IMG/VR virus record: IMGVR_UViG_3300028965_000026
Length of the DNA: 26,162 bases
Origin: a virus
Lineage: Duplodnaviria; Heunggongvirae; Uroviricota; Caudoviricetes
Direction: 5' to 3' (one strand)
Shown here: piece by piece, positions 5,649 to 20,984 of the stretch
Position numbering within the stretch: position 1 is the first letter of the stretch
Layout: each line of letters opens with the position of its first letter
Translations under genes and position numbers: made by a program
The notes under the pieces: generated by a model
What the model was told of the DNA's origin: nothing
The model's input: only the letters and a program-made list of their open reading frames with translations
Databases searched by the model: none

Positions 5649-7536
5649 TATGATGATCGCCGTCACAACCGCATTGCAGCCACTGATAAGGGCACTGCCG
5701 GTGACGCCAGTTGAATGGGCTGATCAAAATTATTATCTGCCTAAAGAGTCGTCATATGTTGATGGAGAATGGAAGACCCTGCCGTTTCAGGTTGCCATCA
5801 TGAACAGCATGGGAAATGACCGGATCCGTACTGTTAATCTGATTAAATCGGCGCGTGTGGGTTACACCAAAATGCTGCTGGGCGTGGTTGGGTATTTTAT
5901 TGAGCATAAATCCCGTAACAGCCTGCTCTTCCAGCCGACAGATTCTGCAGCTGAAGATTTCATGAAAGCGCATGTGGAGGCTACGCTGCGGGATGTCCCC
6001 TGCCTTAAAGCGTTATCGCCATGGCTGGGAAGAAAGCACCGTGATAATACACTCACCCTGAAGCGTTTTTCCTCCGGCGTGGGGTTCTGGTGCCTGGGCG
6101 GTGCCGCAGCTAAAAACTACCGTGAAAAATCTGTGGATGTGGTCTGCTATGACGAACTCTCCTCGTTTGAACCGGATGTGGAAAAAGAAGGCTCGCCGAC
6201 GCTGCTTGGCGATAAACGTATCGAAGGCTCGGTATGGCCTAAATCCATACGCGGCTCAACGCCAAAAATCAAAGGTTCCTGTCAGATTGAGAAAGCCGCG
6301 AATGAATCTGCGCATTTCATGCGGTTTTATGTCCCTTGCCCTCATTGCGGGGAGGTCCAGTATCTGAAGTTTGGCGATGATGCGACGCCGTTTGGCCTGA
6401 AATGGGAGAAGGGTAAACCGGAAACGGTGTATTACCTGTGTGAACATAATGGCTGTGTGATCCGGCAGTCGGAACTTGACCAGACCGACGGACGCTGGAT
6501 TTGTGACAATACCGGGATGTGGACGCGCGACGGCCTGGCATTTTACAGCGCCGGTGATGAGGAGATGCCGCCACCGCGCTCAATCACGTACCACGTGTGG
6601 ACAGCGTACAGTCCGTTCACCACCTGGGTACAGATTGTTTATGACTGGCTGGATGCGCTGAAGGATCCGAACGGTGTCAAGACGTTTATTAACACCACGC
6701 TCGGGGAGCCCTATGAAGAGGCCGTGGCAGAAAAACTGAGCTTTGAGCTGTTGCTGGAAAAAGTCTGCCACTATGGCGCGCAGGTTCCCCTGCGGGTGGT
6801 TTACCTGACCGCCGGGATCGACTCCCAGAAAGATCGCTATGAAATTTATGTGTGGGGCTGGGCTCCCGGCGAAGAAGCCTTTCTGATTGATAAGCAAATT
6901 ATCATGGGGCGACCGGAAGACGAGGACACCCTTAAACGTGTTGATACGGTGATCCGGAAAAAATATCGTCATGCTGACGGTACTGAAATTTCCATTTCCC
7001 GTGTCTGCTGGGATACCGGTGGTATCGACCAGGACATTGTGTATCAGCGTTCCAGGAAACACGGCACTTTTTTTGTGCTTCCCATAAAAGGGGCATCGGT
7101 GTACGGCAAGCCGGTGATCACCATGCCCAAAAAGCGCAACCAGCGTGGTGTGTTTTTGTGTGAGGTGGGCTCCGATACCGTCAAGGAAATGCTGTACGCC
7201 CGTTTTGCCCTGCCGGTGGTATCTGCCAGTGAAGCCGCCCCGTATACCTTCCGTTTTCCGGATAACCCCGACATTTTTTCGGAAGAAGAGGCGCGTCAGA
7301 TCGTGGCGGAAGAGCTGGTGGAGAAGGTGGTTAATGGCAGGGTGAAACTGCTGTGGGATAAAAAAGGGCGACGCAACGAAGCCCTCGACTGCCTGGTATA
7401 TGCCTATGCTGCCCTGCGTATTTCAGTTCAGCGGTGGCAGCTGGATCTTGAAGCACTGGCCCGTGCCAGAAGAGATGAGCAGGACGACGATGAGATGAGT
7501 CTGGAAGAAATCGCGGCTGCACTGAGTGGAGGATAA
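5620..7536 (+). CDS. A: Terminase large subunit (lambda gpA-like)
   Basis: 638 aa, collinear with lambda gpA as recalled (VEWADQNYYLPKES, KNYREKSVDV, GSVWPKSIRGSTPK, MRFYVPCPHCGE, WTAYSPFTTWVQIV, SRVCWDTGGID, RNEALDCLVYAYAALRIS). Confidence 0.95.
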   Translation: MNISELQLNNMMIAVTTALQPLIRALPVTPVEWADQNYYLPKESSYVDGEWKTLPFQVAIMNSMGNDRIRTVNLIKSARVGYTKMLLGVVGYFIEHKSRNSLLFQPTDSAAEDFMKAHVEATLRDVPCLKALSPWLGRKHRDNTLTLKRFSSGVGFWCLGGAAAKNYREKSVDVVCYDELSSFEPDVEKEGSPTLLGDKRIEGSVWPKSIRGSTPKIKGSCQIEKAANESAHFMRFYVPCPHCGEVQYLKFGDDATPFGLKWEKGKPETVYYLCEHNGCVIRQSELDQTDGRWICDNTGMWTRDGLAFYSAGDEEMPPPRSITYHVWTAYSPFTTWVQIVYDWLDALKDPNGVKTFINTTLGEPYEEAVAEKLSFELLLEKVCHYGAQVPLRVVYLTAGIDSQKDRYEIYVWGWAPGEEAFLIDKQIIMGRPEDEDTLKRVDTVIRKKYRHADGTEISISRVCWDTGGIDQDIVYQRSRKHGTFFVLPIKGASVYGKPVITMPKKRNQRGVFLCEVGSDTVKEMLYARFALPVVSASEAAPYTFRFPDNPDIFSEEEARQIVAEELVEKVVNGRVKLLWDKKGRRNEALDCLVYAYAALRISVQRWQLDLEALARARRDEQDDDEMSLEEIAAALSGG

Positions 7537-7539
7537 AGA

Positions 7540-7749
7540 ATGGTTTATACGCATGAAATGCTTTGTGATGCCCGCCGGGCATTACATGAACTGATGATCG
7601 GACGTGCTGTGGTTTCCGTCAGCAAGGACGGGCGTCAGGTTCAGTATTCGCGGGCGACGATTGGTGAACTGCGTCAGTATATTGAAGAGCTGGAAAGTGC
7701 GCTGGGTGTATCCGGACGGCGTCGCGGCCCGGCAGGAGTGGGGCTGTGA
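7540..7749 (+). CDS. W: Head-tail joining / head completion protein (lambda gpW-like)
   Basis: 69 aa. ARRALHELMIGRAVVSVSKDGRQVQY ... RRRGPAG resembles lambda W ([27 protein letters not shown] ... RRRGPAG). Confidence 0.9.
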   Translation: MVYTHEMLCDARRALHELMIGRAVVSVSKDGRQVQYSRATIGELRQYIEELESALGVSGRRRGPAGVGL

Positions 7750-9317
7750 ACGGGGAACTGGTGGATCTTCACGGGCAGCCACTGCGGCAGAGTATGGGGT
7801 ATTCCGGAGGGGGTACCGGATTTGGCGGGCAGCTTGCGGAATGGCTGCCTGCACCGGAAAGTGCCGACGTGGCGCTCTTACCTTCCATTCAGCTGGGTAA
7901 CGCCCGTGCGGATGATCTGGTCCGCAATAACGGTATTGCCGCAAACGCCGTTGAAATTCATAAAGACCATATCGTCGGACACATGTTTCGTCTGAGTTAC
8001 CGGCCCAACTGGCGCTGGCTGGGGATGTCGGAAGCCGATTCACATGTCTTTATTGAAGATGTTGAGGCAGCGTGGATGGAATTCTGCGATCCGGTGTTTG
8101 GTTCGATGGATGTGGAGGGGCGTCGCTCGTTTACCGAATTTATTCGTGAAGGGGTGGGCGTTCATACATTTAACGGTGAAATTTTTGTCCAGCCCGTATG
8201 GGATACGGAATCCACGTCATTATTCCGGACGAAATTCAAGACCATCAGCCCGAAACGTGTCAGTACACCCGGTTATGGTACCGGCGATCGTTTTATGCGT
8301 GCCGGGGTGGAAATCAACCGGTACGGAAAAGCACTGGCCTACCATGTTCAGGACGATGACTGGCCCGGTTACGGTGTCAGCAACTGGACGCGGATTGCGG
8401 CGACGCTGCCCTCCGGGCGACCGGGAATGATCCATGTGTTTCAGCCGCAGGAGGACGGGCAGACGCGCGGGGCCAACCAGTTTTATTCTGTCATGGAGCG
8501 TCTCAAGATGCTCGACACACTGCAGGCCACGCAACTGCAGTCGGCGGTGGTGCGGGCGATGTATGCCGCGACGATTGAATCCACGCTGGATTCGGAAAAA
8601 GCATTTGAATATATCGCCGGGGTGGGAGATGGCGGTAAAAATCCCCTGAACACCATCATGAAAGGCTACGCGCGTTATTACGCCACCAATACGGTAAAGC
8701 TGGGCGGGGTCCGTATTCCGCATCTTTATCCGGGGGATTCACTGAATCTGCAGACAGCGCAGAATGCAGATAATGGTTTCTCTGAACTGGAAAAGGCGCT
8801 GTTACGTTACATCGCTGCCGGACTGGGGGTGTCCTATGAACAGCTTTCCCGTGATTATTCACAGGTCAGTTATTCCAGTGCCAGGGCATCCGCCAATGAG
8901 TCGTGGCGGTATTTTATGGGCAAACGAAAATTTGTGGCCAGCCGGCTGGCATCACAGATGTTTGCCTGCTGGCTGGAGGAAGCTCTTATTCGCGGTGTGA
9001 TCCGCCCGCCGAAATCCCGTTTTTCATTCTGGGAGGCCCGTTCCGGATGGTGTCGTGCCGAGTGGATTGGTGCCGGTCGCATGGCGATTGATGGCCTTAA
9101 GGAAGTGCAGGAAGCGGTGATGCGTATTGAAGGTGGCCTGAGCACGTACGAGAAAGAGCTGGCCCTGATGGGCGATGACTATCAGGAGATTTTCCGCCAG
9201 CAACTGCGTGAAAGCCAGGAGCGACAGGCGGCTGGTCTTCCCCGCCCCATCTGGATAAAGGACACGTTTCAGCAGCAGATCCGACAGACAACGGGAGAAA
9301 AAGGCGATGCGTCGTAA
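7746..9317 (+). CDS. B: Portal protein (lambda gpB-like)
   Basis: 523-aa ORF in the conserved position between W and the head protease. GTG start overlaps the W stop. Size and order match lambda B. Confidence 0.9.
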   Translation: MNGELVDLHGQPLRQSMGYSGGGTGFGGQLAEWLPAPESADVALLPSIQLGNARADDLVRNNGIAANAVEIHKDHIVGHMFRLSYRPNWRWLGMSEADSHVFIEDVEAAWMEFCDPVFGSMDVEGRRSFTEFIREGVGVHTFNGEIFVQPVWDTESTSLFRTKFKTISPKRVSTPGYGTGDRFMRAGVEINRYGKALAYHVQDDDWPGYGVSNWTRIAATLPSGRPGMIHVFQPQEDGQTRGANQFYSVMERLKMLDTLQATQLQSAVVRAMYAATIESTLDSEKAFEYIAGVGDGGKNPLNTIMKGYARYYATNTVKLGGVRIPHLYPGDSLNLQTAQNADNGFSELEKALLRYIAAGLGVSYEQLSRDYSQVSYSSARASANESWRYFMGKRKFVASRLASQMFACWLEEALIRGVIRPPKSRFSFWEARSGWCRAEWIGAGRMAIDGLKEVQEAVMRIEGGLSTYEKELALMGDDYQEIFRQQLRESQERQAAGLPRPIWIKDTFQQQIRQTTGEKGDAS

Positions 9318-10923
9318 TTTATCGCATATTGCCGCCATGGCATTTAATGAACCGCTTTTACTGGAACCCGCCTATGCGCGGGTTTTCTTTTGCGCGCTGG
9401 GTAAAGAGATAGGGGCCGGCAGCCTTGCCGTTCCTCAGCAGGCTGTTCAGCTTGATGCTGATGGAATGCAACTGGCTGTGACTGACTATATGGTGGGCGG
9501 TCAGCGTCCGGCAAAGAGTTACCAGGTGAAGAATGGCATCGCCATTCTGCCGGTGAGCGGCACGCTGGTGCATAAACTGGGTACCCTGCGGCCTTACTCC
9601 GGCATGACTGGCTATGACGGCCTGACGGCCCGCCTTCAGATGGCGGTGAATGATCCGGATGTGCGCGGCATTTTGCTGGATATCGACAGCCCGGGCGGTC
9701 AGGCTGCCGGGGCGTTTGACTGTGCTGACATGATTTACCGTCTGCGGGAACAGAAGCCCGTGTGGGCGCTGTGTAATGACATGGCCTGTTCAGCCGCCAT
9801 GTTGCTGGCGGCAGCCTGTACCCGTCGGCTGGTCACGCAGACGGCAAAAATTGGTTCGATTGGCGTGATGATGGCGCACGCCAGTTACGAGAAACAACTG
9901 GCACAGGAAGGGGTGGACATCACGCTGATTTACTCCGGGCAGCACAAGGTTGACGGCAACAGTATTCAGGCATTGCCGGCAGGTGTGCGTGCAGATTTTC
10001 AGCGCCGTATTGATGAGGCCCGCCGGATGTTTGTCGACAAGGTGGCGCTTTATACGGGGCTGAGTTCAGAGGCGGTGATGAATACCGAGGCTGCCGTTTA
10101 TGACGGTCAGGCAGGCATTGATGCAGGTCTGGCTGATCAACTGATTAATGCTGCAGATGCCGTTGAAGTGATGGTTTCTGCACTGAATGACTCTGTTACG
10201 AAGGAGAATGCAATGACTGTTAAAAATCTCACCGTTGCTGAAGCGGTGGCCCAGGAAAATCAGCGCGTGATGGGGATCCTGAATTGTCAGGAGGCGAAAG
10301 GGCGCGAGCAACTGGCGCAAATGCTGGCAGGTCAGCCTGGAATGACGGTTGAGCAGGCGAAAACGTTGCTGGCTGCTGCGCCGGTTGCCGGTACTGACAG
10401 CACGGGTGATCAGATTATGGCGCTGCCGGAAGCAAAAGGGCGTGAGCAACTGGCACAGATGCTGGCAGGTCAGCCGGGGATGACGGTGGCGCAGGCGAAA
10501 GCGTTTCTGGCGGCAGCCCCTGCTGCCGGTGCTGCAGGCACAGGCGATCAGATTATGGCGCTGCCGGAAGCAAAAGGGCGTGAACAACTCGCGCAGGCGC
10601 TGGCTGAACAGCCGGGAATGACCGTTGACCAGGCCAAAACGTTACTGGCGGCGGCACCGGTTGCGGGGTCTGCAAGTGTCGGCGATCAGATTATGGCGCT
10701 GCCGGAGGCGAAAGGGCGTGAGCAACTTGCACAGGCACTGACAGAACAACCTGGAATGACGGTGGCGCAGGCGAAAACGCTGCTGGCAGCCGCGCCGACG
10801 GCATCGCAACCGTCACAGGAAACACTTTTTGATCGCTTTATGGCACAGCATGTTGCCAGTGCGGTTTCCGGTGGCGGAACTGCCGGGCGCGGGGAGGAAG
10901 ACCTGCTGATGAGTATGCCGTAA
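9307..10923 (+). CDS. C: Head maturation protease (S49/ClpP-like, lambda gpC-like) fused in frame to a repeat-expanded scaffold domain
   Basis: N-terminus LSHIAAMAFNEPLLLEPAYARVFFCAL and SYQVKNGIAILPVSGTL ... LLDIDSPGG ... WALCNDMACSAA match lambda gpC as recalled. The C-terminal 230 aa contain about four tandem 46-aa repeats. Confidence 0.9.
   Translation: MRRNLSHIAAMAFNEPLLLEPAYARVFFCALGKEIGAGSLAVPQQAVQLDADGMQLAVTDYMVGGQRPAKSYQVKNGIAILPVSGTLVHKLGTLRPYSGMTGYDGLTARLQMAVNDPDVRGILLDIDSPGGQAAGAFDCADMIYRLREQKPVWALCNDMACSAAMLLAAACTRRLVTQTAKIGSIGVMMAHASYEKQLAQEGVDITLIYSGQHKVDGNSIQALPAGVRADFQRRIDEARRMFVDKVALYTGLSSEAVMNTEAAVYDGQAGIDAGLADQLINAADAVEVMVSALNDSVTKENAMTVKNLTVAEAVAQENQRVMGILNCQEAKGREQLAQMLAGQPGMTVEQAKTLLAAAPVAGTDSTGDQIMALPEAKGREQLAQMLAGQPGMTVAQAKAFLAAAPAAGAAGTGDQIMALPEAKGREQLAQALAEQPGMTVDQAKTLLAAAPVAGSASVGDQIMALPEAKGREQLAQALTEQPGMTVAQAKTLLAAAPTASQPSQETLFDRFMAQHVASAVSGGGTAGRGEEDLLMSMP
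10213..10923 (+). CDS. Candidate nested in-frame scaffolding protein (lambda Nu3 analogue) translated from an internal start
   Basis: AAGGAG at 10201-10206 followed 6 nt later by an in-frame ATG at 10213 (..KENAMTVKNL..). Lambda Nu3 is likewise encoded in frame within the 3' part of C. The product would consist almost entirely of the repeat region. Confidence 0.45.
   Translation: MTVKNLTVAEAVAQENQRVMGILNCQEAKGREQLAQMLAGQPGMTVEQAKTLLAAAPVAGTDSTGDQIMALPEAKGREQLAQMLAGQPGMTVAQAKAFLAAAPAAGAAGTGDQIMALPEAKGREQLAQALAEQPGMTVDQAKTLLAAAPVAGSASVGDQIMALPEAKGREQLAQALTEQPGMTVAQAKTLLAAAPTASQPSQETLFDRFMAQHVASAVSGGGTAGRGEEDLLMSMP
10283..10798 (+). repeat. Tandem direct repeat, 138-bp unit (46 codons), about 3.7 copies, inside the protease/scaffold gene
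   Basis: Anchor AAAGGGCG recurs at 10297, 10435, 10573 and 10711 (period exactly 138). Protein units read ALPEAKGREQLAQ(M/A)LA(G/E)QPGMTV(E/A/D)QAK(T/A)(L/F)LAAAP...GDQIM; the unit ends are near-identical at DNA level and the middles are diverged. Confidence 0.9.
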
Positions 10924-10961
10924 GCGATATCCGGAATTCAGATAAATCAGGAGACTGAAAA

Positions 10962-11297
10962 ATGATTAAAACCACCACGGAAAAGCGCGCGGATGTGCAC
11001 ATTTTTGCCGGAAGCGATCCGGCGCATACCGCAACAGCCACCAGTGGTATCAGTGCTGCCACGCCTGCACTGACGCCACTGATGCTGGATGACGCCACCG
11101 GTAAACTGGTGGCATGGGATGGTCAGAAAGCCGGAACGGCAGTGGGGGTGCTGGCTCTGGCGCTTACCGGAACAGAACCCACGCTGACGTACTACAAAAG
11201 CGGTACGTTTGCCACTGAGTCGCTGGTCTGGCCTGACTCTGTGGATGCGGTGAAAAAAGCCAACGCATTTGTGGGAAGTGCCATCAGCCACGCCTGA
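10962..11297 (+). CDS. D: Head decoration protein (lambda gpD-like)
   Basis: 111 aa. SDPAHTATA ... TPLMLD ... KLVAWDG ... [10 protein letters not shown] ... VGSAIS matches lambda D as recalled. AGGAG RBS. Confidence 0.9.
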
Positions 11298-11320
11298 TGG
11301 TGAAGTGATTGACTGAAAAA

Positions 11321-11350
11321 ACGGGTCGCGATGCGGCCCGTTTGTGTTTC
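11321..11350 (+). terminator. Stable hairpin with U-rich tail between the decoration and major capsid genes (terminator or attenuator-like)
   Basis: ACGGGTCGC-GAT-GCGGCCCGT (9 bp with one G-U pair) followed by TTGTGTTTCTG. Confidence 0.35.
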
Positions 11351-11366
11351 TGAAGGAAAATAAATT

Positions 11367-12395
11367 ATGGGGTTATTTACCACGCGTCAGTTACTCGGGT
11401 ACACCGAGCAGAAAGTGAAATTTCGTGCGCTGTTTCTGGAGCTGTTCTTTCGTCGCACGATCACTTTCCATACTCAGGAAGTCATGCTGGATAAAATTAC
11501 CGGCAAAACACCGGTTGCGGCGTATGTGTCTCCGGTGGTGTCAGGCAAAGTGCTGCGCAGCCGTGGTGGTGAAACCCGCGTGTTACGTCCCGGTTATGTA
11601 AAACCCAAACACCGCTTTGATTATCAGCAGGCAGTGGAACGTCTTCCGGGGGAAGATCCGGCCCGTCTTAATGACCCGGCCTACCGCCGCCTGCGTATTC
11701 TGACGGACAACCTGAAGCAGGAAGAGCAGGCGATTGTGCAGGTGGAAGAAATGCAGGCGGTCAGTGCCGTTCTGCAGGGTAAGTACACCATGAGCGGGGA
11801 ACAGTTTGAGACGGTGGAAGTGGATTTTGGGCGCTCTGCCACCAATAACATTACTCAGGCTGGCGGCAACAGATGGTCACAGCAGAATGCTGACACCTTT
11901 GATCCAACGCACGATCTGGATGCGTACTGCGATTTTGCCTCCGGGACCATCAATATCGCGATTATGGATGGCACGGTCTGGCGTATGCTGAATGGCTTTA
12001 AGCTTTTCCGTGAAAAACTGGATACCCGTCGTGGTTCAAAATCGGAACTGGAAACCGCGCTGAAAGACCTGGGCTCCGTAGTCTCTTTTAAGGGTTATTA
12101 CGGTGATCTGGCTATTGTGGTGGCGAAAACCGCTTACGTCGATGAAAACGGGGATGAACAGCGTTATCTGCCGGAAGGCACACTGATTCTGGGGAACACT
12201 CAGGCGGAAGGCGTCCGTTGTTATGGTGCCATTCAGGATAATCAGGCACTGAGTGAAGGGATCACCTCTGCGATTCGTTATCCGAAACACTGGTTAGAGG
12301 TGGGGGACCCGGGGTGCGAGTATACCATGACGCAGTCTGCGCCGTTGATGGTGCTGCCGGATCCGGATGCGTTTGTGGTGGTTCAGGTGAAATAA
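11367..12395 (+). CDS. E: Major capsid protein (lambda gpE-like)
   Basis: 342 aa, collinear with lambda E as recalled (YVSPVVSGKVLRSRGG, PGYVKPKH, DPAYRRLRI, QVEEMQAVSAVLQGKYTMSGEQF, LDTRRGSKSELETA, YPKHW, MTQSAPLM). Confidence 0.95.
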   Translation: MGLFTTRQLLGYTEQKVKFRALFLELFFRRTITFHTQEVMLDKITGKTPVAAYVSPVVSGKVLRSRGGETRVLRPGYVKPKHRFDYQQAVERLPGEDPARLNDPAYRRLRILTDNLKQEEQAIVQVEEMQAVSAVLQGKYTMSGEQFETVEVDFGRSATNNITQAGGNRWSQQNADTFDPTHDLDAYCDFASGTINIAIMDGTVWRMLNGFKLFREKLDTRRGSKSELETALKDLGSVVSFKGYYGDLAIVVAKTAYVDENGDEQRYLPEGTLILGNTQAEGVRCYGAIQDNQALSEGITSAIRYPKHWLEVGDPGCEYTMTQSAPLMVLPDPDAFVVVQVK

Positions 12396-12445: not shown

Positions 12446-12811
12446 ATGACAAAAGAGCAGATGACTGAACGTTTGCAGGAACTGGCAGTGATTCTGGGGC
12501 GTGAAGCAGATATTTCAGGTTCAAAAGCCGATCTTGAGCAGCGCCTGGCGGAATGGGAAGAGGAGGCCGCCGGATTCGATGGGGAGGAGACAGGGAAGGA
12601 AGAGGTGGGCAACGATGCATCCGGCGACGGAATGCATTCTGAGCGGGGACTCGCCCGGGTGCGTATGCTGAAAACGGCGCATATGCCAGCCTGTGATGCT
12701 GTGACGGGAAAAATGTTGATGTTTGCCCGGGCCTCCAGTGTTGTGCTGGTTAATGAAGCCGCAGTTCCAGCGTTGCTGGCGGACGGTCTGGCAGAAAAAA
12801 TCCGGGAGTGA
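12446..12811 (+). CDS. DNA packaging protein (lambda FI-like)
   Basis: RBS GGGAGAG, ATG at 12446. MTKEQMTERL ... ERGLAR resembles lambda FI (MTKDELIARL ... ERGLAR) and the gene is in the FI position. The six-frame ORF from 12314 is an upstream extension. Confidence 0.7.
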   Translation: MTKEQMTERLQELAVILGREADISGSKADLEQRLAEWEEEAAGFDGEETGKEEVGNDASGDGMHSERGLARVRMLKTAHMPACDAVTGKMLMFARASSVVLVNEAAVPALLADGLAEKIRE

Positions 12812-13215
12812 TGATGTTAGATAATCTGTTCGATCAGGCCATGAGCGATGCGGATGACATCATCCTGGATACGATGGGGACGGAAATCAGCATATATCCG
12901 GACGGCACGGAAAGAAGAATCCGTGCCGTTTTTGATGCCCCGGCAGAAAACACCGGGATGAACACTGGCAGCGGCGAAATTCGTGATACTGCGCCCGTGT
13001 TATTTACCCGGAGCGCATGGGCCGCCGGTCTGAAAAAATATGACAGGGTCATGATCCACGGCGAACCCTATCAGGTAGTCGATCCCGGCTGGGGTGAGTC
13101 AGGCACTGTGGGTCAGGGGGTGATTACCATCACCCTTGCGCGTGGAGAGCCGGGGAGAAATACACCTGCTGCACCGGAACGACCGAGTAAACGTTATGGC
13201 AGTCAGAGAGCATGA
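12811..13215 (+). CDS. Head-tail connector protein (lambda FII-like)
   Basis: N-terminal LDNLFDQAMSDADDIILDTMGT resembles lambda FII (DFDNLFDAAIARADETIRGYMGT). Start is one of the tandem ATGs at 12811/12814, overlapping the FI stop. Confidence 0.7.
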   Translation: MMLDNLFDQAMSDADDIILDTMGTEISIYPDGTERRIRAVFDAPAENTGMNTGSGEIRDTAPVLFTRSAWAAGLKKYDRVMIHGEPYQVVDPGWGESGTVGQGVITITLARGEPGRNTPAAPERPSKRYGSQRA

Positions 13216-13918
13216 ACGAAGCAGTGCCCGGCAGCGACGGCTGGCACGAAACCTCGTCGTCGATATTGATGAAGATGAGGTGCTGAAAATTATCGCTAAA
13301 CTGGGTGGGTCAAAAAGTCAGATCCGTAAAGCCTGGGGCGTGGCGCTGAAAAGAGCCGCGTCTGCACTGCGGATGAAGGCTATGGCAGAGTTTAAAAAAC
13401 AGGTTGCCCCACGCAGTCAGAAAATGATCAAAAAGCGTGTTCTGCATAATTTTATCATTCGTCGTAACGGTGATGAGTTTGATGAGGCGAAGGTATGGTT
13501 CGGTCTGAATGCCATCAAAGTACGCGATCTGCGCGGACGCATCAGTGGGGGGCGACGCGGCGAACGCCATCAGTTGCGCGATGAGCGGGGGCGTTTTGCA
13601 CCAGCTTCCCGCCGCAGGAAGGCACGGGAGATCCGTTTTAAACCTGCAGGGGAATCCCTGCCTGTCACCACTTGGTCAACGGATGATGCCTTTATCAATC
13701 AGTTCGAAGCGGAAAATCGTAACGGACGTATATCAAAAAGGAAAACGATACTGATCCGACAGGCATCCGGACGACGGAGGGTGCGTGAAGCGGAAATTGA
13801 TATTTATGAAGCCATGCTGAACCGTATAGAGGATTTTGTTTTTCCGGATGCGGAAGCACTGATCCTGAAAAATTTTGAGCATGAACTGAAATTCCGGGTA
13901 TTTAAGGGGCTGGAGTGA
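13196..13918 (+). CDS. Hypothetical Arg-rich virion morphogenesis protein (possible head-tail adaptor or tail completion protein)
   Basis: 240-aa ORF between the FII-like gene and the baseplate genes; very basic (RRRKAREIRF..., GRRRVRE). Start is uncertain: ATG at 13196, or TTG at 13136 as in the six-frame track. Confidence 0.55.
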   Translation: MAVREHERSSARQRRLARNLVVDIDEDEVLKIIAKLGGSKSQIRKAWGVALKRAASALRMKAMAEFKKQVAPRSQKMIKKRVLHNFIIRRNGDEFDEAKVWFGLNAIKVRDLRGRISGGRRGERHQLRDERGRFAPASRRRKAREIRFKPAGESLPVTTWSTDDAFINQFEAENRNGRISKRKTILIRQASGRRRVREAEIDIYEAMLNRIEDFVFPDAEALILKNFEHELKFRVFKGLE

Positions 13919-14481
13919 TGGAGCCATTGATGATGGGCGCCTGGCATCAGGCGGTGATTGACAGTCTGAAACAAATTCCCTGGGTGGAAGATGCCGATGA
14001 GTACCCGGAAAAAGTGACGCAACTGGTGACGCCTGCTGTGTTTGTGGATGTACCGGGCTGGGACAAGGCTCATTTTGCTGACGGGCAAACGCGGGTCACG
14101 CTGAAATGTGATCTGTTTGTGGTGACAGACCGGGCCGGGAAGACGGAAAACGTGCCAAAACCGCAGATTTTTGCCCGTTGTCTGGCGATGGATTTATCTG
14201 ACTGGATTGAGGGAGCCACGTTCGGGCTGGATAACGTTGATCCGGCGGTTTTTATCGATGCTGAGGTGGATACCTTCGACCGGCTGCTGGACGACTACAT
14301 CGTTTTCCGTGTCTCTTTCGAACAGGACATTCCGGTCGGCGAAGATCCGTTTGCGGTTCCGGCAGGTGCGCCGTTACAGGAAGTCTGGCTGGGTAAAGTA
14401 CCGGAAACCGGCAAGAGACATGAGCAGGATTATCGTCTTATCTGGAAATCGGAGGGCACCGGTGATGAGTCTGGCAGATGA
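13915..14481 (+). CDS. Hypothetical virion protein (possible tail completion or neck protein)
   Basis: 188-aa acidic ORF, start overlapping the preceding stop (GTG 13915 / ATG 13918), 3' end overlapping the V-like gene. No motif recognised. Confidence 0.55.
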   Translation: MMEPLMMGAWHQAVIDSLKQIPWVEDADEYPEKVTQLVTPAVFVDVPGWDKAHFADGQTRVTLKCDLFVVTDRAGKTENVPKPQIFARCLAMDLSDWIEGATFGLDNVDPAVFIDAEVDTFDRLLDDYIVFRVSFEQDIPVGEDPFAVPAGAPLQEVWLGKVPETGKRHEQDYRLIWKSEGTGDESGR

Positions 14482-15088
14482 AGTGGCAGAGTTACGCCGC
14501 AGGGTGGCGGACATGGTCCGTCGCGGCGTGGTGGACGAGGTGATCCCGGGTAGCCCGGTTATGGTTCGGGTGGATATCGGGGATGTGCTTTCGCCTCCGT
14601 TGCCCTGGATTCAGGTACAGTCCGGGCGCTACATGCAAGTCAGTAATTACCCGGCTCCCGGAGATGCCGTTACAGTGATATCGGAGGCAGGCGATCTGCG
14701 TAACGGTCGGGTGTATCCGGGGGCTAATATTGACGCCATTCCTGTCCCTGAGGGCAGTGAATACGAACATGTTATTTTGTTTGATACCGGAACGGAAATC
14801 CGTTACGACCGTCAGGCTAATGCCCTGTCCATCACGCTGGCTGAAGGCGGCAGCTATAAAATTACCGGCAGGGGAACCCTGGACGGTCCGGTAGAAATCA
14901 CAGATACCCTGACCGTACAGGGTAAAGCAACCATGAATGCTGAGGCGGTGGTTAAGGCGGATCTGATGGTCGGTGGTGAGGTTTCTGATTATCACGGAAC
15001 GATGAGTCAAATCAGAATTGTCTATAACGGTCACAATCACCGGGGCGACAGTGGTGGCAGCACCGGACAGCCTGGTCAGCAAATGTAA
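14465..15088 (+). CDS. V: Baseplate hub/spike protein (P2 gpV-like)
   Basis: ATG at 14465 (MSLADEVAELRRR...). C-terminal ...HNHRGDSGGSTGQPG matches the P2 V motif ...HKHPGDSGGTTG as recalled. The six-frame ORF from 14171 is an upstream extension. Confidence 0.85.
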   Translation: MSLADEVAELRRRVADMVRRGVVDEVIPGSPVMVRVDIGDVLSPPLPWIQVQSGRYMQVSNYPAPGDAVTVISEAGDLRNGRVYPGANIDAIPVPEGSEYEHVILFDTGTEIRYDRQANALSITLAEGGSYKITGRGTLDGPVEITDTLTVQGKATMNAEAVVKADLMVGGEVSDYHGTMSQIRIVYNGHNHRGDSGGSTGQPGQQM

Positions 15089-15121
15089 TCTCCTTTCAGT
15101 TCTTTTTCCGGAATAAACAAC

Positions 15122-15478
15122 ATGATTGGTATTGATTCAGCCACCGGCAGATATCTGCACGGTAACGAACATCTGCGCCAGTCCGTCACCGATATTTTGT
15201 CAACACCGGTCGGCAGCCGGGTCCTGCTCAGGGAATACGGCAGCAGACTTTTCAGTCTGCTTGATAACCCACAGGATGATTTCACGCGGGTGAGAATTGT
15301 TCGTGAAACGGTAACCGCCCTTGAACGCTGGGAACCCCGCCTGACTCTCCGGCGGGTGGAAGTGACGTGGACAGGAGAAGGAAGCGCGTGGCTGACGCTT
15401 GTCGGGGTGAATAACGAAACTCAGGATACGATTCGACTCGAGGAGATAAAAATTGGCAACGTCTCAGGCAATTATTGA
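15122..15478 (+). CDS. Baseplate wedge protein (P2 gpW / GPW-gp25 family)
   Basis: 118 aa. GIDSATGRYLHGNEHLRQSVTDILSTPVGSRVLLREYGS ... ERWEPRL resembles P2 W (GINRRTGKLIRDHEHIRQSIRDILTTPIGSRVMRRNYGS ... ARWEPRI). Confidence 0.9.
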   Translation: MIGIDSATGRYLHGNEHLRQSVTDILSTPVGSRVLLREYGSRLFSLLDNPQDDFTRVRIVRETVTALERWEPRLTLRRVEVTWTGEGSAWLTLVGVNNETQDTIRLEEIKIGNVSGNY

Positions 15479-16367
15479 TCTGTCCGCGATACCAGTACCG
15501 GATGCGGTGGAGGTGCCGGACACCGCTGTGCTGGTCACTCAGATAGTGGCGAAGTATCAGGAGCTGGATACGTTGTTTTCGGCTCTGGTGGAATCTGATC
15601 CCGCGTATAAATGGGCAGAGGCGCTGGCTTATCGGGTGGCGCTGATGCGCCAGCAGATAAATGATGCTGTCCGTGCTGTACTGCTTGCCAGTGCCGGTGG
15701 GAACGATCTGGATCAGGTTGGCGCGAATTATCAGGTTCAGCGGCTGGTTATTACCCCGGCAGACGACAGCACCATTCCGCCCACGCCGGCGGTGTATGAA
15801 GATGATGACGCTTTTCGCGAACGTATCCAGTTGTCATGGGCACGGCTCAGCACCGCTGGCGCGAAAAATGCGTATCACTATTTTGCACAAAGTGCTGATC
15901 CTGATGTGCTGGATGTGAAGGCTTACGGGCCGGAAACACATTCGCAGGAAGGCCGGGTTTTTCTTTATGTGTTATCCCGGTCCGGAAATGGCACTGCATC
16001 ACACCCCCTGCTGGATAAGGTGGCAGCATCAGTTTGTGATGATGAAACCCGTCCCCTGACGGATTTTGTCAGTGTCCGGACGGCAGAAATTATTCCCTAC
16101 GATGTGGTGGCGGATATTCATATTCCCTACGGACTGGATGGTGAACTGGTTATGGCAAATGCCCGCAAGGCGCTGCAGTCATACACTGACAGCGTCCACC
16201 GGATTGGCTCGGTGGCATCCCGTTCTGGTATGGATGGTGCCCTTCACCAGACCGGGGTGATTACGGTGAATCTGACCTCTCCGGGCAGTGATATCGTTCC
16301 TGCGATGGGGCAGGCACCGTGGTGTCGCTCAGTCACACTGAACAAGGTGGAGACAACCGATGAATGA
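15453..16367 (+). CDS. J: Baseplate assembly protein (P2 gpJ-like)
   Basis: 304 aa. Long identity block with P2 J as recalled (NDAVRAVLLASAGGNDLDQVGANYQVQRLVITPADDSTIPPTPAV). TTG start at 15453 with GGAG 8 nt upstream; overlaps the end of the W-like gene. Confidence 0.9.
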   Translation: MATSQAIIDLSAIPVPDAVEVPDTAVLVTQIVAKYQELDTLFSALVESDPAYKWAEALAYRVALMRQQINDAVRAVLLASAGGNDLDQVGANYQVQRLVITPADDSTIPPTPAVYEDDDAFRERIQLSWARLSTAGAKNAYHYFAQSADPDVLDVKAYGPETHSQEGRVFLYVLSRSGNGTASHPLLDKVAASVCDDETRPLTDFVSVRTAEIIPYDVVADIHIPYGLDGELVMANARKALQSYTDSVHRIGSVASRSGMDGALHQTGVITVNLTSPGSDIVPAMGQAPWCRSVTLNKVETTDE

Positions 16368-16950
16368 CAAAATCAGAAGCATACTTCCTGTCAGCGCCAG
16401 CCGGGCAGAGCGGGTGGTGGACAGTACCGCCGGTGATATGCTGGCGGAAATCGCAGTATGTCTGATCCGCTATGTCAAAAATCCCGATTTATGTCCTGCT
16501 GAATTGCTGCCATGGCTGGCCTGGGAAATGGCGGTGGACACCTGGAATGAACACTGGACGGAGGCGGAAAAAAGGTCTGCGATAAAACGTGCTGCATACA
16601 TCCACCGCCACAGAGGGACTAAAGCGGCGCTGATGGCATCGCTGGCTGACAGTCCCTTCCGGTCGCAGATTGTTGAGTGGTATGAGCAGACCCCACCCGG
16701 GGAGCCGTATACCTTCCGTCTGAACGTGGAGCAGAAAGATTTACCGGTGCTGATGAATGATCATCAGGATCTGAAGCATGCGGTGCTCCGTGCCAAAAAT
16801 CTGCGCAGCTGGTTCAGTATTCACGTTTACGGGAACAGCACAGGGCGTGGATTTGGTTACGGCTATGTGATGGCGACAGAAAAAATCAGAAGTACCGGTG
16901 TGACAACAAAGACAGTGCCCACAGGCGGGCAGAGTGAGGCAGGTGTATGA
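16360..16950 (+). CDS. I: Baseplate/tail protein (P2 gpI-like)
   Basis: 196 aa. NPDLCPAELLPWLAWEMAVDTWNEHWTEAEKRSAIKRA matches P2 I (NPDTCPANLLPWLAWAFSVDRWDEKWPEATKRAVIRDA). Confidence 0.9.
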   Translation: MNDKIRSILPVSASRAERVVDSTAGDMLAEIAVCLIRYVKNPDLCPAELLPWLAWEMAVDTWNEHWTEAEKRSAIKRAAYIHRHRGTKAALMASLADSPFRSQIVEWYEQTPPGEPYTFRLNVEQKDLPVLMNDHQDLKHAVLRAKNLRSWFSIHVYGNSTGRGFGYGYVMATEKIRSTGVTTKTVPTGGQSEAGV

Positions 16951-18332
16951 ATGGACTGATTCTGACAACGTCCGGCGCTGCAGAAATTGAAGCAGCATAT
17001 CAGAACGGGCAAACCGTGACCGTCCGGCATGTTCTGCTTGGTGACGGGGGCGGGCGGGCATTGCCATCCACGCCGGATGAAATGGCAGCAATGACATCGT
17101 TGTACGGCGAATTCGGGCAGGAACCCTTTTCCGACGGTGCGGTGGAGGAGGGCTTCATCAGCGGGGATATTGTGATTGACTGTAAATCATACCCCGGTAA
17201 AACCCTTCGTGAACTGGGGATGATCAGCGACAGAGGTACGCTTATCGCGTACGGACGTTATCCCGACACCTTTTTACCAGACCAGACGGACTCTGTTATC
17301 AAGGAAGTTATTCTGACGCTGGTTCTTGGGCTGACGCACGCACAAAACGTGGTGCTGGAAGTTGATCCGGACAGGGCCATTATTACTCAGGAAATCGGAG
17401 ACAGACGCTATCTGCAACGAAAAAAGAATCTTTCGGATGTGGAAGACAAGGATGAGGCTGTTGAAAACCTCGGATTAAAACCCACGGTGGACAAGGCAAA
17501 AAATGCCGTTCAGCGTGATGGTGACACCATGACCGGGGAACTGAAAATCCGTGGTGTTAATGCGCTGAGGATTTTCAACGAAGCCTTTGGTCTGATTTTT
17601 CGTCGTTCGGAAGAGTGCCTGCACCTTATCCCTACCAGTGAAGGTCAGGGCGAGAATGGCGATATTGGTCCACTTCGACCGTTCACTATTAATCTGCGGA
17701 CGGGTGAAATATCCATGTCGCATAAAGTGTCTGTTGGCGGCGGTTCTCAGGTCAATGGTGCGCTGGGTATCGGCGTTCAGAACGCGCTGGGCGGAAACTC
17801 AATTGCTTTCGGGGATAACGATACAGGTATAAAACAAAACGGCGACGGCATTCTGGATGTTTATGCGAATGGACAGCATGTATTTCGTTTCCAGAATGGT
17901 GTGGCGATAGCGTTAAAAAATATTCAGGCCGGAAATGCTAAAAAATTCACGTTATCCAGCGCCAACAACTCCACGAAAAACGCAACGTTTAATTTATGGG
18001 GTAATTCATCCCGACCTGTAGTTGCAGAGCTTGGTGATGATTCCGGCTGGCATTTTTACAGTCAGAGGAATACGGATAACAGTATAACGTTCGCTGTAAA
18101 CGGGCAGATGGTTCCATCAAACTACGGAAACTTTGATGCCCGCTATCAGACCAAAACAGGCGGTGTACAGGATGTGCGTCTGGGCAGTGCCATTGGTATT
18201 GGGCGTGGCGGGAACGCACCATCAGGTCACCTTATCAGCGGTCTTGATGGTGGTGAAAGTATGGACTGGGCCAATGCCCGCCCGGTGCAGGTTCTGATTA
18301 ATGGCGTCTGGCGGAATGTAGCGAGTTTGTAA
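16947..18332 (+). CDS. H: Tail fibre protein (P2 gpH-like, C-terminal receptor-binding region conserved)
   Basis: 461 aa. C-terminal about 170 aa nearly collinear with P2 H as recalled (NALGGNSIAFGDNDTGIKQNGDGILDVYANGQHVFRFQNGVAIALKNIQAG ... FNLWGNSSRPVVAELGDDSGWHFYSQRNTDNSITFAVNGQM). Confidence 0.85.
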   Translation: MNGLILTTSGAAEIEAAYQNGQTVTVRHVLLGDGGGRALPSTPDEMAAMTSLYGEFGQEPFSDGAVEEGFISGDIVIDCKSYPGKTLRELGMISDRGTLIAYGRYPDTFLPDQTDSVIKEVILTLVLGLTHAQNVVLEVDPDRAIITQEIGDRRYLQRKKNLSDVEDKDEAVENLGLKPTVDKAKNAVQRDGDTMTGELKIRGVNALRIFNEAFGLIFRRSEECLHLIPTSEGQGENGDIGPLRPFTINLRTGEISMSHKVSVGGGSQVNGALGIGVQNALGGNSIAFGDNDTGIKQNGDGILDVYANGQHVFRFQNGVAIALKNIQAGNAKKFTLSSANNSTKNATFNLWGNSSRPVVAELGDDSGWHFYSQRNTDNSITFAVNGQMVPSNYGNFDARYQTKTGGVQDVRLGSAIGIGRGGNAPSGHLISGLDGGESMDWANARPVQVLINGVWRNVASL

Positions 18333-18334
18333 TT

Positions 18335-18880
18335 ATGATGCACTTAAAAAATCTTACGGTACAAAACCCTAAAACAATTGAGCAATACCAGCTGGCGCGA
18401 CAGCATAAATTTTTATTGTGGCTGCTCTCCGATGATGGTCAGGAATGGCACGAAGCCCAGGAAAAATTTCAGCCAGACACTCTGAAAGTTATTTATGTTG
18501 AAACTGGCGAAGTGGTCTGGGTTGGAAAAGACATCACCTCAATCTGCCCGGAAAATAAAAGTGTGATTGAGTTGCCGGATATTACCGCTAATCGTCGCAT
18601 TGAGGCGTCGGGATACTGGTTCTACCGCAATGATGAATTTGTTTTCGACTACAAACTTAAAGCGGAAGATGAGCGTGACGCACTGTTAAAACAGGTCAGT
18701 ATCATGACCAGCGAATGGGAAAAAGACCTGCTGCTGGGTTTAATCAGCGACGAAGACAGGGAAAAGCTCAAAGCGTACCGCATTTACGCGAAATCGCTGC
18801 AGGCGATGGATTTCAGCGCTATTACGGATAAGACCACTTACAACAATATTAGCTGGCCTGAGCAGCCACAAAATACCTGA
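18335..18880 (+). CDS. Tail fibre assembly chaperone (P2 gpG / Tfa family)
   Basis: 181 aa. MMHLKNLTVQNPKTIEQYQL ... FQPDTLKVIYVE ... VIELPDITANRR ... WPEQPQ matches P2 G as recalled (MQHLKNIKSGNPKTKEQYQL ... FQPDTIKIVYDE ... VVEVPDITSNRR ... WPEMPQ). Confidence 0.9.
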   Translation: MMHLKNLTVQNPKTIEQYQLARQHKFLLWLLSDDGQEWHEAQEKFQPDTLKVIYVETGEVVWVGKDITSICPENKSVIELPDITANRRIEASGYWFYRNDEFVFDYKLKAEDERDALLKQVSIMTSEWEKDLLLGLISDEDREKLKAYRIYAKSLQAMDFSAITDKTTYNNISWPEQPQNT

Positions 18881-18899
18881 AAAAGAAGTTAATCATCTG

Positions 18900-18921
18900 A
18901 CCGCCTGAGGGCGGTTTTTTT
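18900..18921 (+). terminator. Intrinsic terminator after the tail fibre assembly gene (ACCGCC-TGAG-GGCGGT, T6 tail)
   Basis: Perfect 6-bp stem with a tetraloop and six T residues. Confidence 0.65.
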
Positions 18922-18934
18922 ATGGGAGAAATGT

Positions 18935-20925: not shown

Positions 20926-20946
20926 TCCGGGGATCCTGTCATTCAG

Positions 20947-20970
20947 GCAGCTCAGGCTGCCTTTTCTTTT
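20947..20970 (+). terminator. Terminator-like hairpin after the tube gene (GGCAGC-TCAG-GCTGCC, TTTTCTTTTT tail)
   Basis: 6-bp stem with a tetraloop and a T-rich tail, immediately upstream of the AAGGAG RBS of the next gene. Confidence 0.55.
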
Positions 20971-20984
20971 TAAAGGAGATGCTT

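What the first reader, a model, noticed from the sequence alone, without database searches (positions are those of the whole stretch)
10201..10923. Strong internal RBS and in-frame ATG suggest a nested Nu3-like scaffold protein made of the repeats
AAGGAG at 10201-10206 is followed at 6 nt by an in-frame ATG at 10213 inside the protease ORF, just upstream of the repeat array. This matches the lambda C/Nu3 arrangement, where the scaffold is translated from an internal in-frame start. The nested product (about 236 aa) would be almost entirely repeat units.
Basis: partly seen in the sequence, partly recalled or inferred. Interest (0 to 1): 0.45.

Follow-up and report, generated by a model that had tools for sequence, protein, structure and literature searches.

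The report
Nested scaffold gene inside prophage protease
The internal ribosome-binding site and start codon are real and conserved, and mark the well-known lambda Nu3 / phage 21 gene 6 type of scaffold gene nested in the head-protease gene of an E. coli prophage, so this is an unannotated but ordinary member of a known arrangement.

Summary
AAGGAG lies at 10201-10206, followed by 6 nt and ATG 10213, in frame with the 538-aa ORF 9307-10923. The nested product is 236 aa. The motif alone is not above chance (2 matches in the window against 1.4 expected).

Comparative evidence carries the case. The ORF is a lambda gpC-type S49 head protease in a lambda-type head gene order. In phage 21, the nearest described relative, the homologous ATG is already annotated as the start of nested gene 6 (the Nu3 homologue), and the same repeats are annotated as 'Tri boxes'. 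Across 34 distinct sequence contexts from about ten enterobacterial genera and an Aeromonadaceae MAG, a GGAG-type site and an invariant ATG form an island in an otherwise variable linker. The site is kept through different codons. It is also the least-structured mRNA stretch in the whole ORF.

The nested protein has an 18-aa head, four 46-aa predicted three-helix units and a 34-aa tail. Relatives carry one to five units.

The homologous lambda start is Met309 (5342), not the GenBank nu3 start (5132). Translation itself was not tested. Verdict: new member of a known kind, low interest.

The parts
9307..10923 (+). Full-length 538-aa head protease-scaffold ORF (lambda gpC / phage 21 gp5 homologue). 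Its start overlaps the end of the portal gene (7746-9317) by 11 nt.
   Evidence: ORF list and translation. Pfam Peptidase_S49 E=2.8e-33 and PHROG 53 'head maturation protease' E=2.6e-215. 68% identity to phage 21 gp5 and 58% to lambda gpC. RefSeq annotates it as 'S49 family peptidase' only.
9307..10191 (+). S49 (SppA-like) protease domain, residues 1 to about 295. The Ser162 codon is 9790-9792 and the Lys214 codon is 9946-9948.
   Evidence: phmmer against the PDB aligns residues 76-290 to B. subtilis SppA (3rst, 4kwb, E about 1.5e-16). Ser162 aligns with the SppA serine in 'maaSgg', and Lys214 with the position after 'sgah'. That these are the catalytic Ser/Lys of SppA is from my memory of the SppA literature. 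Both are invariant in the window/21/lambda alignment.
10201..10206 (+). Internal Shine-Dalgarno sequence AAGGAG (read in frame as Lys-Glu).
   Evidence: Sequence. Duplex with the 16S 3' end is -8.8 kcal/mol, stronger than the SD of the full-length start at -7.4. A GGAG-type core is conserved in 34 distinct contexts through different codons: GGA GGN, AAG GAG, CAG GAG, GAG GAC, AGA GGT.
10213..10215 (+). Internal in-frame ATG (Met303), the proposed start of the nested scaffold protein.
   Evidence: Invariant (2.0 bits) in all 34 distinct contexts, while flanking linker positions carry 0-1 bit. Homologous to the annotated phage 21 gene 6 start. Sits in the most open mRNA stretch of the ORF.
10213..10923 (+). 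Nested ORF giving a 236-aa Nu3/gp6-like scaffold protein, identical to the C-terminal 236 residues of the full-length protein.
   Evidence: PHROG 8399 'head scaffolding protein' E=2.5e-50 and PHROG 8940 'capsid assembly protein' E=1e-42. Aligns with phage 21 gp6 and lambda Nu3. Not present as a called protein in the 15-billion-sequence collection.
10267..10818 (+). Four tandem 138-nt (46-aa) units at 10267-10404, 10405-10542, 10543-10680 and 10681-10818. The consensus is roughly GDQIMALPEAKGREQLAQxLAxQPGMTVxQAKTLLAAAP plus an A/G/S/T linker.
   Evidence: TRF period 138, 3.7 copies, 81% matches. Unit table: 64-79% nt and 65-85% aa identity, with 12-18 synonymous codon differences per pair. These are the 'Tri boxes' of phage 21. 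AlphaFold2 predicts three short helices per unit, with block-mean pLDDT 70-81 inside units and about 58-65 between them, and pTM 0.26.
10819..10920 (+). Unique 34-aa C-terminal tail (ETLFDRFMAQHVASAVSGGGTAGRGEEDLLMSMP), conserved with phage 21 and partly with lambda.
   Evidence: Alignments. Predicted helix at residues 202-213 of the nested protein, then a low-confidence segment.

Best explanation
Window 9307-10923 is the head-protease gene of an E. coli prophage that has a lambda-type head module. It encodes two proteins in the same frame. Ribosomes starting at 9307 make the 538-aa protease-scaffold fusion (S49 domain plus scaffold domain). [quoted passage not shown]

By analogy with lambda gpC/gpNu3, the nested scaffold, expected to be the more abundant product, co-assembles with the major capsid protein (gene at 11367-12395) around the portal. 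The shared scaffold domain would carry a few protease molecules into the procapsid. The protease would then degrade the scaffold and itself, so that the shell can mature and be filled.

Shown here: the anatomy, the homology, the conservation of SD+ATG, and the open mRNA at the site. Inferred: that initiation happens at 10213, the relative amounts of the two products, and the assembly role.

The scaffold part is modular: four 46-aa predicted three-helix units joined by flexible Ala/Gly/Pro-rich linkers, plus a conserved C-terminal tail.
For: 1. Family and context. The ORF has an S49 domain with the Ser162/Lys214 pair and sits in the lambda head gene order A-W-B-C-D-E.

2. Direct precedent. Phage 21 records M81255 and OL657228 annotate a nested gene 6 'scaffolding protein' with its own RBS at the homologous position, and annotate the same repeats as Tri boxes. 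The lambda records annotate nu3 nested in C. [quoted passage not shown]

3. Conservation. All 82 distinct complete homologues that passed my anchor-based filter, among 147 loci, have an in-frame ATG with an SD (-5.8 to -12.0 kcal/mol) just downstream of the protease domain (Met302-309 in my numbering). So do the seven filter rejects with complete tails that I inspected by hand. Five truncated lambda-like fragments rejected for lack of the N-terminal anchor were not re-inspected. In 34 distinct 57-nt contexts the ATG is invariant and the GGAG core carries 1.1-2.0 bits, within a linker of 0-1 bit. The SD survives changes of the encoded residues (Gly-Gly, Lys-Glu, Gln-Glu, Glu-Asp, Arg-Gly), which points to selection on the RNA rather than the protein.

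4. Accessibility. The cost of opening -18..+12 is 6.1 kcal/mol at 10213, against 15.7 +/- 4.1 for all 499 codon positions of the ORF. The seven lowest values all fall at 10201-10219. The value resembles those of the D and E gene starts (4.9 and 5.7) and is lower than at the full-length start (11.5). The homologous sites lie in the lowest 1.3% in phage 21 and the lowest 4.8% in lambda.

5. The start lies 13 residues after the last residue aligned to SppA (residue 290), that is, at the domain boundary.

6. Gene callers in other data sets call stand-alone proteins starting at exactly this Met in 21-type relatives.

7. No sigma-70-like promoter on the + strand within 9000-11400, so an internal RBS on the late transcript is the simplest route to the nested product.
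Against: No expression data exist for this prophage. The phage 21 RBS and gene 6 are themselves labelled 'putative' in M81255.

The motif is not statistically unusual within the single window.

The compared sequences are related, so the 34 contexts are not independent observations.

A Gly-Gly linker followed by Met could in principle be conserved for protein reasons in the lambda and 21 types.

The 100-nt local fold around the site is no less stable than shuffles (z = -0.03). The accessibility signal therefore reflects a local A/U-rich patch rather than a global lack of structure.

The predicted structure is only of medium confidence (mean pLDDT 69, pTM 0.26), and no solved or predicted structure matched it significantly.
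Confidence: 0.85

Rival explanations
1. Only the full-length 538-aa protein is made. The scaffold function, or a free scaffold fragment, comes from self-cleavage of the fusion in the linker. The SD-like sequence and Met303 are just linker residues.
For: P2-type phages use a single protease-scaffold fusion; PMC8508860 says P2 encodes both in a single gene, and that P2 lacks a nested gene is from memory. RefSeq annotates only one CDS here. The motif alone is not above chance in the window.
Against: The ATG is invariant and the GGAG core is retained through non-synonymous codon changes, in a linker that is otherwise free to vary in sequence and length. The mRNA is most open exactly here. From memory of Shaw & Murialdo 1980 (paper not read here), C amber mutants of lambda still make Nu3. 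One protease per scaffold molecule would also be an odd stoichiometry for a catalytic enzyme.
Confidence: 0.08
2. The internal SD-like sequence works as a translational pause site. It would slow elongating ribosomes at the domain boundary so that the protease domain folds before the scaffold domain emerges. It would not be a start site.
For: The element sits at the boundary between the S49 domain and the scaffold domain. Pausing at internal SD-like sequences has been proposed for E. coli (from memory, and later disputed).
Against: This does not explain the invariant ATG at fixed spacing after the SD. It does not explain the unstructured mRNA patch typical of initiation regions, nor the genetically defined separate Nu3 function in lambda (references cited).
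Confidence: 0.04
3. A nested product is made, but from a different internal start, such as the position homologous to the GenBank lambda nu3 start (lambda 5132, window residue 235) or Met241/Met258.
For: The lambda GenBank and RefSeq records place nu3 at 5132, giving 201 aa. Window ATG 10078 (Met258) has an SD-like duplex of -6.9 kcal/mol.
Against: The residue homologous to the lambda 5132 Met is Ile in the window and in phage 21. In lambda that site has average mRNA openness (43rd percentile). Window Met241 and Met258 need 20.9 and 9.6 kcal/mol to open, against 6.1 at 10213, and both lie inside the stretch that aligns with SppA.
Confidence: 0.03

Closest known systems
Phage 21 genes 5 and 6 (head protease and nested Nu3 homologue with 'Tri boxes'; GenBank M81255 and OL657228)
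   Same: 68% protein identity over the whole gene. The nested in-frame start is at the homologous place with its own SD. The same roughly 46-aa repeat unit and C-terminal tail are present, and the gene neighbours are the same: portal upstream, decoration and major capsid genes downstream.
   Different: Phage 21 has three units (gp6 = 200 aa); the window has four (236 aa). The SD is GGAGG read as Gly-Gly in phage 21 and AAGGAG read as Lys-Glu here. The N-terminal peptide differs (MPQLTATEA against MTVKNLTVAEA). The window phage has a P2-type contractile tail module. From memory, phage 21 is a lambdoid siphovirus.
Lambda C / Nu3 (S49 head protease with nested scaffold gene)
   Same: 58% identity over the whole-gene alignment. 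The head gene order is the same. Lambda has one copy of the same unit (AENSRIMGILNCEEAHGREEQARVLAETPGMTVKTARRILAAAP) and a related C-terminal tail. It has a conserved AGGAGG-4 nt-ATG at Met309 (lambda 5342), homologous to window Met303.
   Different: Lambda has one unit preceded by a 48-residue Ser/Thr/Ala-rich spacer; the window has four units and almost no spacer. The GenBank/RefSeq nu3 CDS starts 70 codons further upstream (5132), at a Met that is not conserved in the family.
Herpesvirus UL26 / UL26.5 (protease and in-frame nested scaffold; from memory)
   Same: The logic is the same: a protease-scaffold fusion and a more abundant scaffold share a C-terminal capsid-targeting part, so a few protease molecules are carried into the procapsid.
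   Different: No sequence relationship was tested or is expected. The protease fold differs (assemblin, not S49). The nested product comes from a separate promoter and transcript rather than an internal RBS.
P2 gpO and HK97 delta domain (other solutions for scaffold and protease)
   Same: Scaffold function is physically linked to another head protein and removed by proteolysis. PMC8508860 summarises these cases.
   Different: P2 gpO is a single fusion, and the lack of a described nested product is from memory. The HK97 scaffold is the N-terminal domain of the capsid protein. Neither carries the 46-aa unit seen here.

Membership tests
Lambda gpC / phage 21 gp5-type head protease with nested Nu3/gp6 scaffold gene | N-terminal S49 (SppA-like) serine protease domain with a conserved Ser/Lys pair | tested here: met
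   Pfam PF01343 E=2.8e-33. Residues 76-290 align with SppA structures 3rst and 4kwb at E about 1.5e-16, with Ser162 and Lys214 at the aligned positions. Both are invariant against phage 21 and lambda.
Lambda gpC / phage 21 gp5-type head protease with nested Nu3/gp6 scaffold gene | Position in a lambda-type head operon: terminase A, W, portal B, C, decoration D, major capsid E | tested here: met
   Pfam hits for GpA_ATPase and GpA_nuclease (5620-7536), gpW (7540-7749), Phage_portal_2 (7746-9317), HDPD (10962-11297) and Phage_cap_E (11367-12395).
Lambda gpC / phage 21 gp5-type head protease with nested Nu3/gp6 scaffold gene | C-terminal part homologous to Nu3/gp6 scaffold proteins | tested here: met
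   PHROG 8399 'head scaffolding protein' E=2.5e-50 and PHROG 8940 'capsid assembly protein' E=1e-42 for the nested product. Alignments with phage 21 gp6 (60% identity) and lambda Nu3.
Lambda gpC / phage 21 gp5-type head protease with nested Nu3/gp6 scaffold gene | In-frame internal SD plus ATG just after the protease domain, conserved across the family | tested here: met
   AAGGAG-6 nt-ATG at 10201-10215. Present in every complete homologue examined, with 34 distinct contexts. Local minimum of mRNA structure in the window, phage 21 and lambda.
Lambda gpC / phage 21 gp5-type head protease with nested Nu3/gp6 scaffold gene | The nested product is actually translated, is needed for procapsid assembly, and is removed by the protease | not testable with these tools
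   No expression or genetic data are available for this prophage. For lambda this rests on papers seen only as citations (Ray & Murialdo 1975; Shaw & Murialdo 1980; Medina et al. 2010, 2011).

The most novel reading that the evidence does not exclude
The number of 46-aa three-helix units in this scaffold family may be a fast-changing, functionally tuned parameter rather than neutral length variation. Counts run from one to five across the family, and are 2, 4 or 5 among close relatives of this very gene. The unit would be an autonomous capsid- or portal-binding bead whose copy number sets scaffold valency or reach. Stand-alone two-unit proteins in Bradyrhizobium elements suggest the module is portable. 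Copy number could then affect assembly fidelity, capsid size control, or susceptibility to capsid-redirecting satellites.
Probability: 0.2. Interest if true: 0.5.

Novelty: new member of a known kind. Interest (0 to 1): 0.2.

Why it matters
The main value is for annotation. The nested scaffold gene is missing from the RefSeq annotation of the 100%-identical record examined (CEA224S). More than a hundred complete E. coli genomes carry this gene over at least 80% of its length, and the listed hits show only 'S49 family peptidase'. The 236-aa product is absent from a 15-billion-protein collection.

The comparative data also point to the conserved start of the lambda scaffold protein at Met309 of C, which disagrees with the long-standing GenBank nu3 coordinates. 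They further show that the scaffold is built from a variable number of one small module. That gives a natural series (1-5 units) for asking what sets scaffold length and valency in T=7 lambda-type heads. None of this changes the known picture of how such phages build heads.

Tried and rejected
- Pattern statistics. The bare SD+ATG pattern is not enriched, so I did not rest the case on it.
- Local RNA folding of 100 nt around the site gave z = -0.03 against shuffles, which is uninformative. I replaced it with a position-by-position opening-energy scan.
- Internal promoter. No sigma-70-like site on the + strand in 9000-11400, so a separate transcript was not pursued.
- Structure comparison. Foldseek of the AlphaFold2 model against the PDB and BFVD gave no match at E<=0.001. 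The best hits were C-terminal tails of other S49 prohead proteases and a few helix-hairpin-helix proteins at E of about 1-5. The weak Pfam hits of the unit (T2SSK, DUF732, Bac_DNA_binding) have no stretch that passes on its own. I treat a helix-hairpin-helix resemblance as unproven.
- Literature. I could not retrieve Shaw & Murialdo 1980, Medina et al. 2010/2011, Smith & Feiss 1993, Liu et al. 2013 (lambda ribosome profiling) or Casjens & Hendrix 2015. Which lambda Nu3 start has been shown experimentally could therefore not be checked. My recollection that UniProt P03711 gives Nu3 as an isoform initiated at Met309 is from memory only.
- My first regex filters dropped most loci because some C genes start with GTG or carry variant N-termini. 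This was corrected.
- L064 (Parvularculaceae) is a cellular SppA, not a phage gene, and was ignored.
Full report
**What is at the coordinates**

Reading the sequence confirms AAGGAG at 10201-10206, a 6-nt spacer, and ATG at 10213-10215. The only long ORF here is 9307-10923 on the + strand, 538 aa. The distance 10213-9307 is 906 nt, so the ATG is in frame as Met303. Initiation there would give a 236-aa protein.

Tandem Repeats Finder reports a 138-bp period with 3.7 copies at 10290-10797. At protein level there are four in-register 46-aa units at 10267-10818. They are preceded by 18 unique residues and followed by a 34-residue tail.

**Is it more than chance?**

Taken alone, it is not.

- The pattern AAGGAG-N4-9-ATG occurs twice in the window against 1.4 expected, and 40 of 100 shuffles reach that count.
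- 2.8% of all 885 ATGs in the window have an anti-SD duplex at least as strong, at -8.8 kcal/mol.
- Within the ORF it is the best-equipped in-frame ATG, apart from one lying four codons before the stop.

The case must rest on other evidence.

**What the gene is**

The ORF carries a Peptidase_S49 domain (E=2.8e-33) and matches the PHROG 'head maturation protease' family (E=2.6e-215). Residues 76-290 align with the solved SppA signal-peptide peptidases. Ser162 and Lys214 fall at the aligned positions of the SppA catalytic pair (the identity of that pair is from memory).

The neighbouring genes are terminase gpA, gpW, a lambda-family portal, a gpD-type decoration protein and a gpE-type major capsid protein. 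This is the lambda head gene order. Downstream lies a P2-type contractile tail module with baseplate, fibre, sheath and tape-measure genes.

The window is 100% identical to a prophage in E. coli CEA224S. Near-identical copies occur in about a hundred complete E. coli genomes.

**The precedent**

The closest described relative is phage 21, at 68% protein identity. Both phage 21 records annotate gene 5 (protease/scaffold) and a nested in-frame gene 6 ('scaffolding protein', the Nu3 homologue) with its own RBS. The older record also annotates three 'Tri boxes, function unknown'.

These Tri boxes are the same repeat unit as in the window. The phage 21 gene 6 ATG lies at the homologous place. Its DNA reads AGAGGAGGCACTATG; the window reads CGAAGGAGAATGCAATG.

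Lambda itself has exactly one copy of the unit, preceded by a 48-residue Ser/Thr/Ala-rich spacer.

**Comparative test of the internal start**

I fetched 61 loci from species-representative genomes and 80 from viral contigs. Together with the phage records and the window this made 147 sequences.

Every complete gene has an in-frame ATG just downstream of the protease domain (Met302-309 in my numbering), preceded by an SD-like sequence of -5.8 to -12.0 kcal/mol. This covers 82 distinct C-terminal regions that passed my filter, plus seven filter rejects with complete tails inspected by hand. Five truncated lambda-like fragments rejected by the filter were not re-inspected.

Collapsed to 34 distinct 57-nt contexts, the sample spans Escherichia, Trabulsiella, Providencia, Buttiauxella, Enterobacter, Klebsiella, Pluralibacter, Kluyvera, Phytobacter, Citrobacter, Erwinia, Pseudocitrobacter and an Aeromonadaceae MAG. 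In these contexts:

- the ATG is invariant (2.0 bits);
- the GGAG core carries 1.1-2.0 bits;
- the surrounding linker carries 0-1 bit.

The SD is kept through different encoded residues:

| Codons | Residues | Where |
|---|---|---|
| GGA GGN | Gly-Gly | lambda and phage 21 types |
| AAG GAG | Lys-Glu | the window |
| CAG GAG | Gln-Glu | L072-L077, L080 |
| CAG GAG GAC | Gln-Glu-Asp | L081 |
| GAG GAC | Glu-Asp | Providencia |
| AGA GGT | Arg-Gly | Buttiauxella L009 |

That pattern is what selection on an RNA signal looks like, not selection on a peptide. The sequences are related, so these are not 34 independent trials. The codon switches are independent events, however.

**mRNA accessibility**

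I computed the free-energy cost of making positions -18 to +12 single-stranded, for each of the 499 codon positions scanned in the ORF.

- The ORF mean is 15.7 +/- 4.1 kcal/mol.
- The value at 10213 is 6.1.
- The seven lowest values in the whole ORF all lie at 10201-10219.

The cost at 10213 resembles that of the decoration and capsid gene starts (4.9 and 5.7). It is about half that of the full-length start at 9307 (11.5). This fits a nested product made in larger amounts than the protease.

The homologous sites lie in the lowest 1.3% in phage 21 and the lowest 4.8% in lambda. The lambda nu3 start given in GenBank (5132) is at the 43rd percentile. No sigma-70-like promoter lies on the + strand nearby.

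**A correction to the lambda analogy**

GenBank J02459 and RefSeq NC_001416 place nu3 at 5132-5737, giving 201 aa. That Met aligns with Ile in phage 21 and in the window, and it lies inside the stretch that aligns with SppA.

The conserved family-wide start corresponds to lambda 5342: CAGGAGGGCGAATG, Met309 of C, giving 131 aa. PHROG 8399 'head scaffolding protein' has a 131-position profile. The 131-aa lambda sequence is also called as a separate protein on 165 contigs.

From memory, UniProt lists Nu3 as an isoform initiated at Met309. I could not verify this, nor retrieve the primary papers.

The homologous lambda site is not the one in the standard lambda record.

**The nested protein**

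AlphaFold2, run with a 21-sequence alignment, gives medium confidence (mean pLDDT 69, pTM 0.26). The model has:

- a longer N-terminal helix;
- four units, each with three short helices, with 10-residue block means of pLDDT 70-81 within the units;
- dips to about 58-65 in the Ala/Gly/Pro-rich linkers between units;
- a further helix in the tail, followed by a low-confidence end.

This reads as beads on a string with no fixed arrangement. It agrees with the title of Medina et al. 2011, which calls lambda gpNu3 intrinsically disordered (reference seen). No solved or predicted structure matched significantly.

The four units differ at 21-36% of nucleotides, with 12-18 synonymous codon differences per pair. 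They are therefore old copies held by selection on the protein.

**Copy number varies**

| Units | Nested product | Examples |
|---|---|---|
| 1 | 120-140 aa | lambda type |
| 2 | 144-150 aa | L080, L081, L009 |
| 3 | about 200 aa | phage 21 type |
| 4 | 236 aa | window |
| 5 | 282 aa | L077 |

The 2-, 4- and 5-unit alleles belong to the window's own lineage. The five-unit array in L077 has 95% matches between copies. It is either a recent expansion or an assembly artefact.

Bradyrhizobium genomes encode stand-alone 163-199-aa proteins made of two such units, next to an unassigned 297-aa gene and a tape-measure gene. This suggests the module can work as an independent protein.

**Mechanism**

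The mechanism is inferred from lambda. PMC8508860, citing Shaw & Murialdo 1980 and Medina et al. 2010, states that lambda encodes protease and scaffold in one gene and uses a maturation protease to clear the scaffold.

Two proteins share one reading frame. The nested scaffold would co-polymerise with the capsid protein around the portal. The fusion would use the same scaffold domain to enter the procapsid in small numbers. The protease would then digest scaffold and self. The relative strengths of the two initiation regions would set the ratio. None of these steps was tested here.

**Rivals**

- Fusion only, with self-cleavage supplying the scaffold: probability 0.08.
- The SD acts as a pause site: probability 0.04.
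- A different internal start is used: probability 0.03.

All three fail to explain the invariant, well-spaced ATG in the most open patch of the mRNA.

**Verdict**

It is a previously undescribed, unannotated allele of a textbook arrangement. Interest is low. The by-products are of modest interest: the conserved lambda start and the variable module number.

Noticed in passing
L003 (lambda NC_001416 4300-6200): 833 (= lambda 5132) versus 1043 (= lambda 5342): The GenBank/RefSeq lambda nu3 CDS starts at 5132 (201 aa). That Met is Ile in phage 21 and in the window, has no well-spaced SD and has average mRNA openness. The family-wide conserved AGGAGG-4 nt-ATG is at 5342 (Met309 of C, 131 aa). The standard lambda annotation may carry the wrong Nu3 start.
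   Followed up: partly
L077 2484-3122; L080 and L081 (gene at 1501-2838); window 10267-10818: Close relatives of the window protein carry 2 (446 aa), 4 (538 aa) or 5 (584 aa) copies of the 46-aa unit. The 5-copy array has 95% matches between copies, so it is either a recent expansion or an assembly artefact.
   Followed up: partly
L147 and L148 4001-4594; L149 465-1058 (Bradyrhizobium): Stand-alone 163-199-aa proteins made of two scaffold units, about 37-42% identical to the window unit. Each lies directly upstream of a 297-aa gene with no PHROG hit and near a tape-measure gene, with no S49 protease in the 8.6-kb neighbourhood.
   Followed up: partly
window 11319-11343 (+): A terminator-like hairpin (11-bp stem, 7 G-C pairs, then GTGTTTCTGA) sits in the 69-nt gap between the decoration gene (ends 11297) and the major capsid gene (starts 11367). 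Its role, if any, in setting relative expression was not examined.
   Followed up: no
window 5620-12395 versus 12808-24820: The prophage is mosaic. It joins a lambda-type head module (A, W, B, C, D, E) to a P2-type contractile tail module with baseplate, tail fibre and chaperone, sheath, tube-like protein, tape measure and a late tail protein.
   Followed up: partly
L017, L019-L021, L023-L027, L041, L042, L046-L050 and others (genome contigs): Many hits in unrelated taxa (Neobacillus, Chromatium, Kitasatospora, Shewanella, Pseudomonas, an Akkermansia MAG, Enterococcus) are identical or nearly identical to lambda in the region compared. Many sit on short contigs, several with coverage of about 1 or less. 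This looks like lambda DNA contamination of those assemblies.
   Followed up: no
window 10895-10911: ATG 10909 (Met535) is preceded by GGGGAGGAAG, the strongest SD-like duplex in the ORF at -11.0 kcal/mol. It lies only four codons before the stop, so it is probably a chance by-product of the Gly-Glu-Glu codons.
   Followed up: no
window 9307-9317: The protease gene start (ATG 9307) overlaps the end of the portal gene (stop at 9315-9317) by 11 nt, which suggests translational coupling of the full-length product to the portal gene.
   Followed up: no
database proteins P0046-P0152: Most database copies of this protein family are labelled 'partial' and come from short contigs. The contigs probably break inside the 138-bp repeat array, although I did not check where they end. 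If so, short-read assemblies systematically lose this gene.
   Followed up: no
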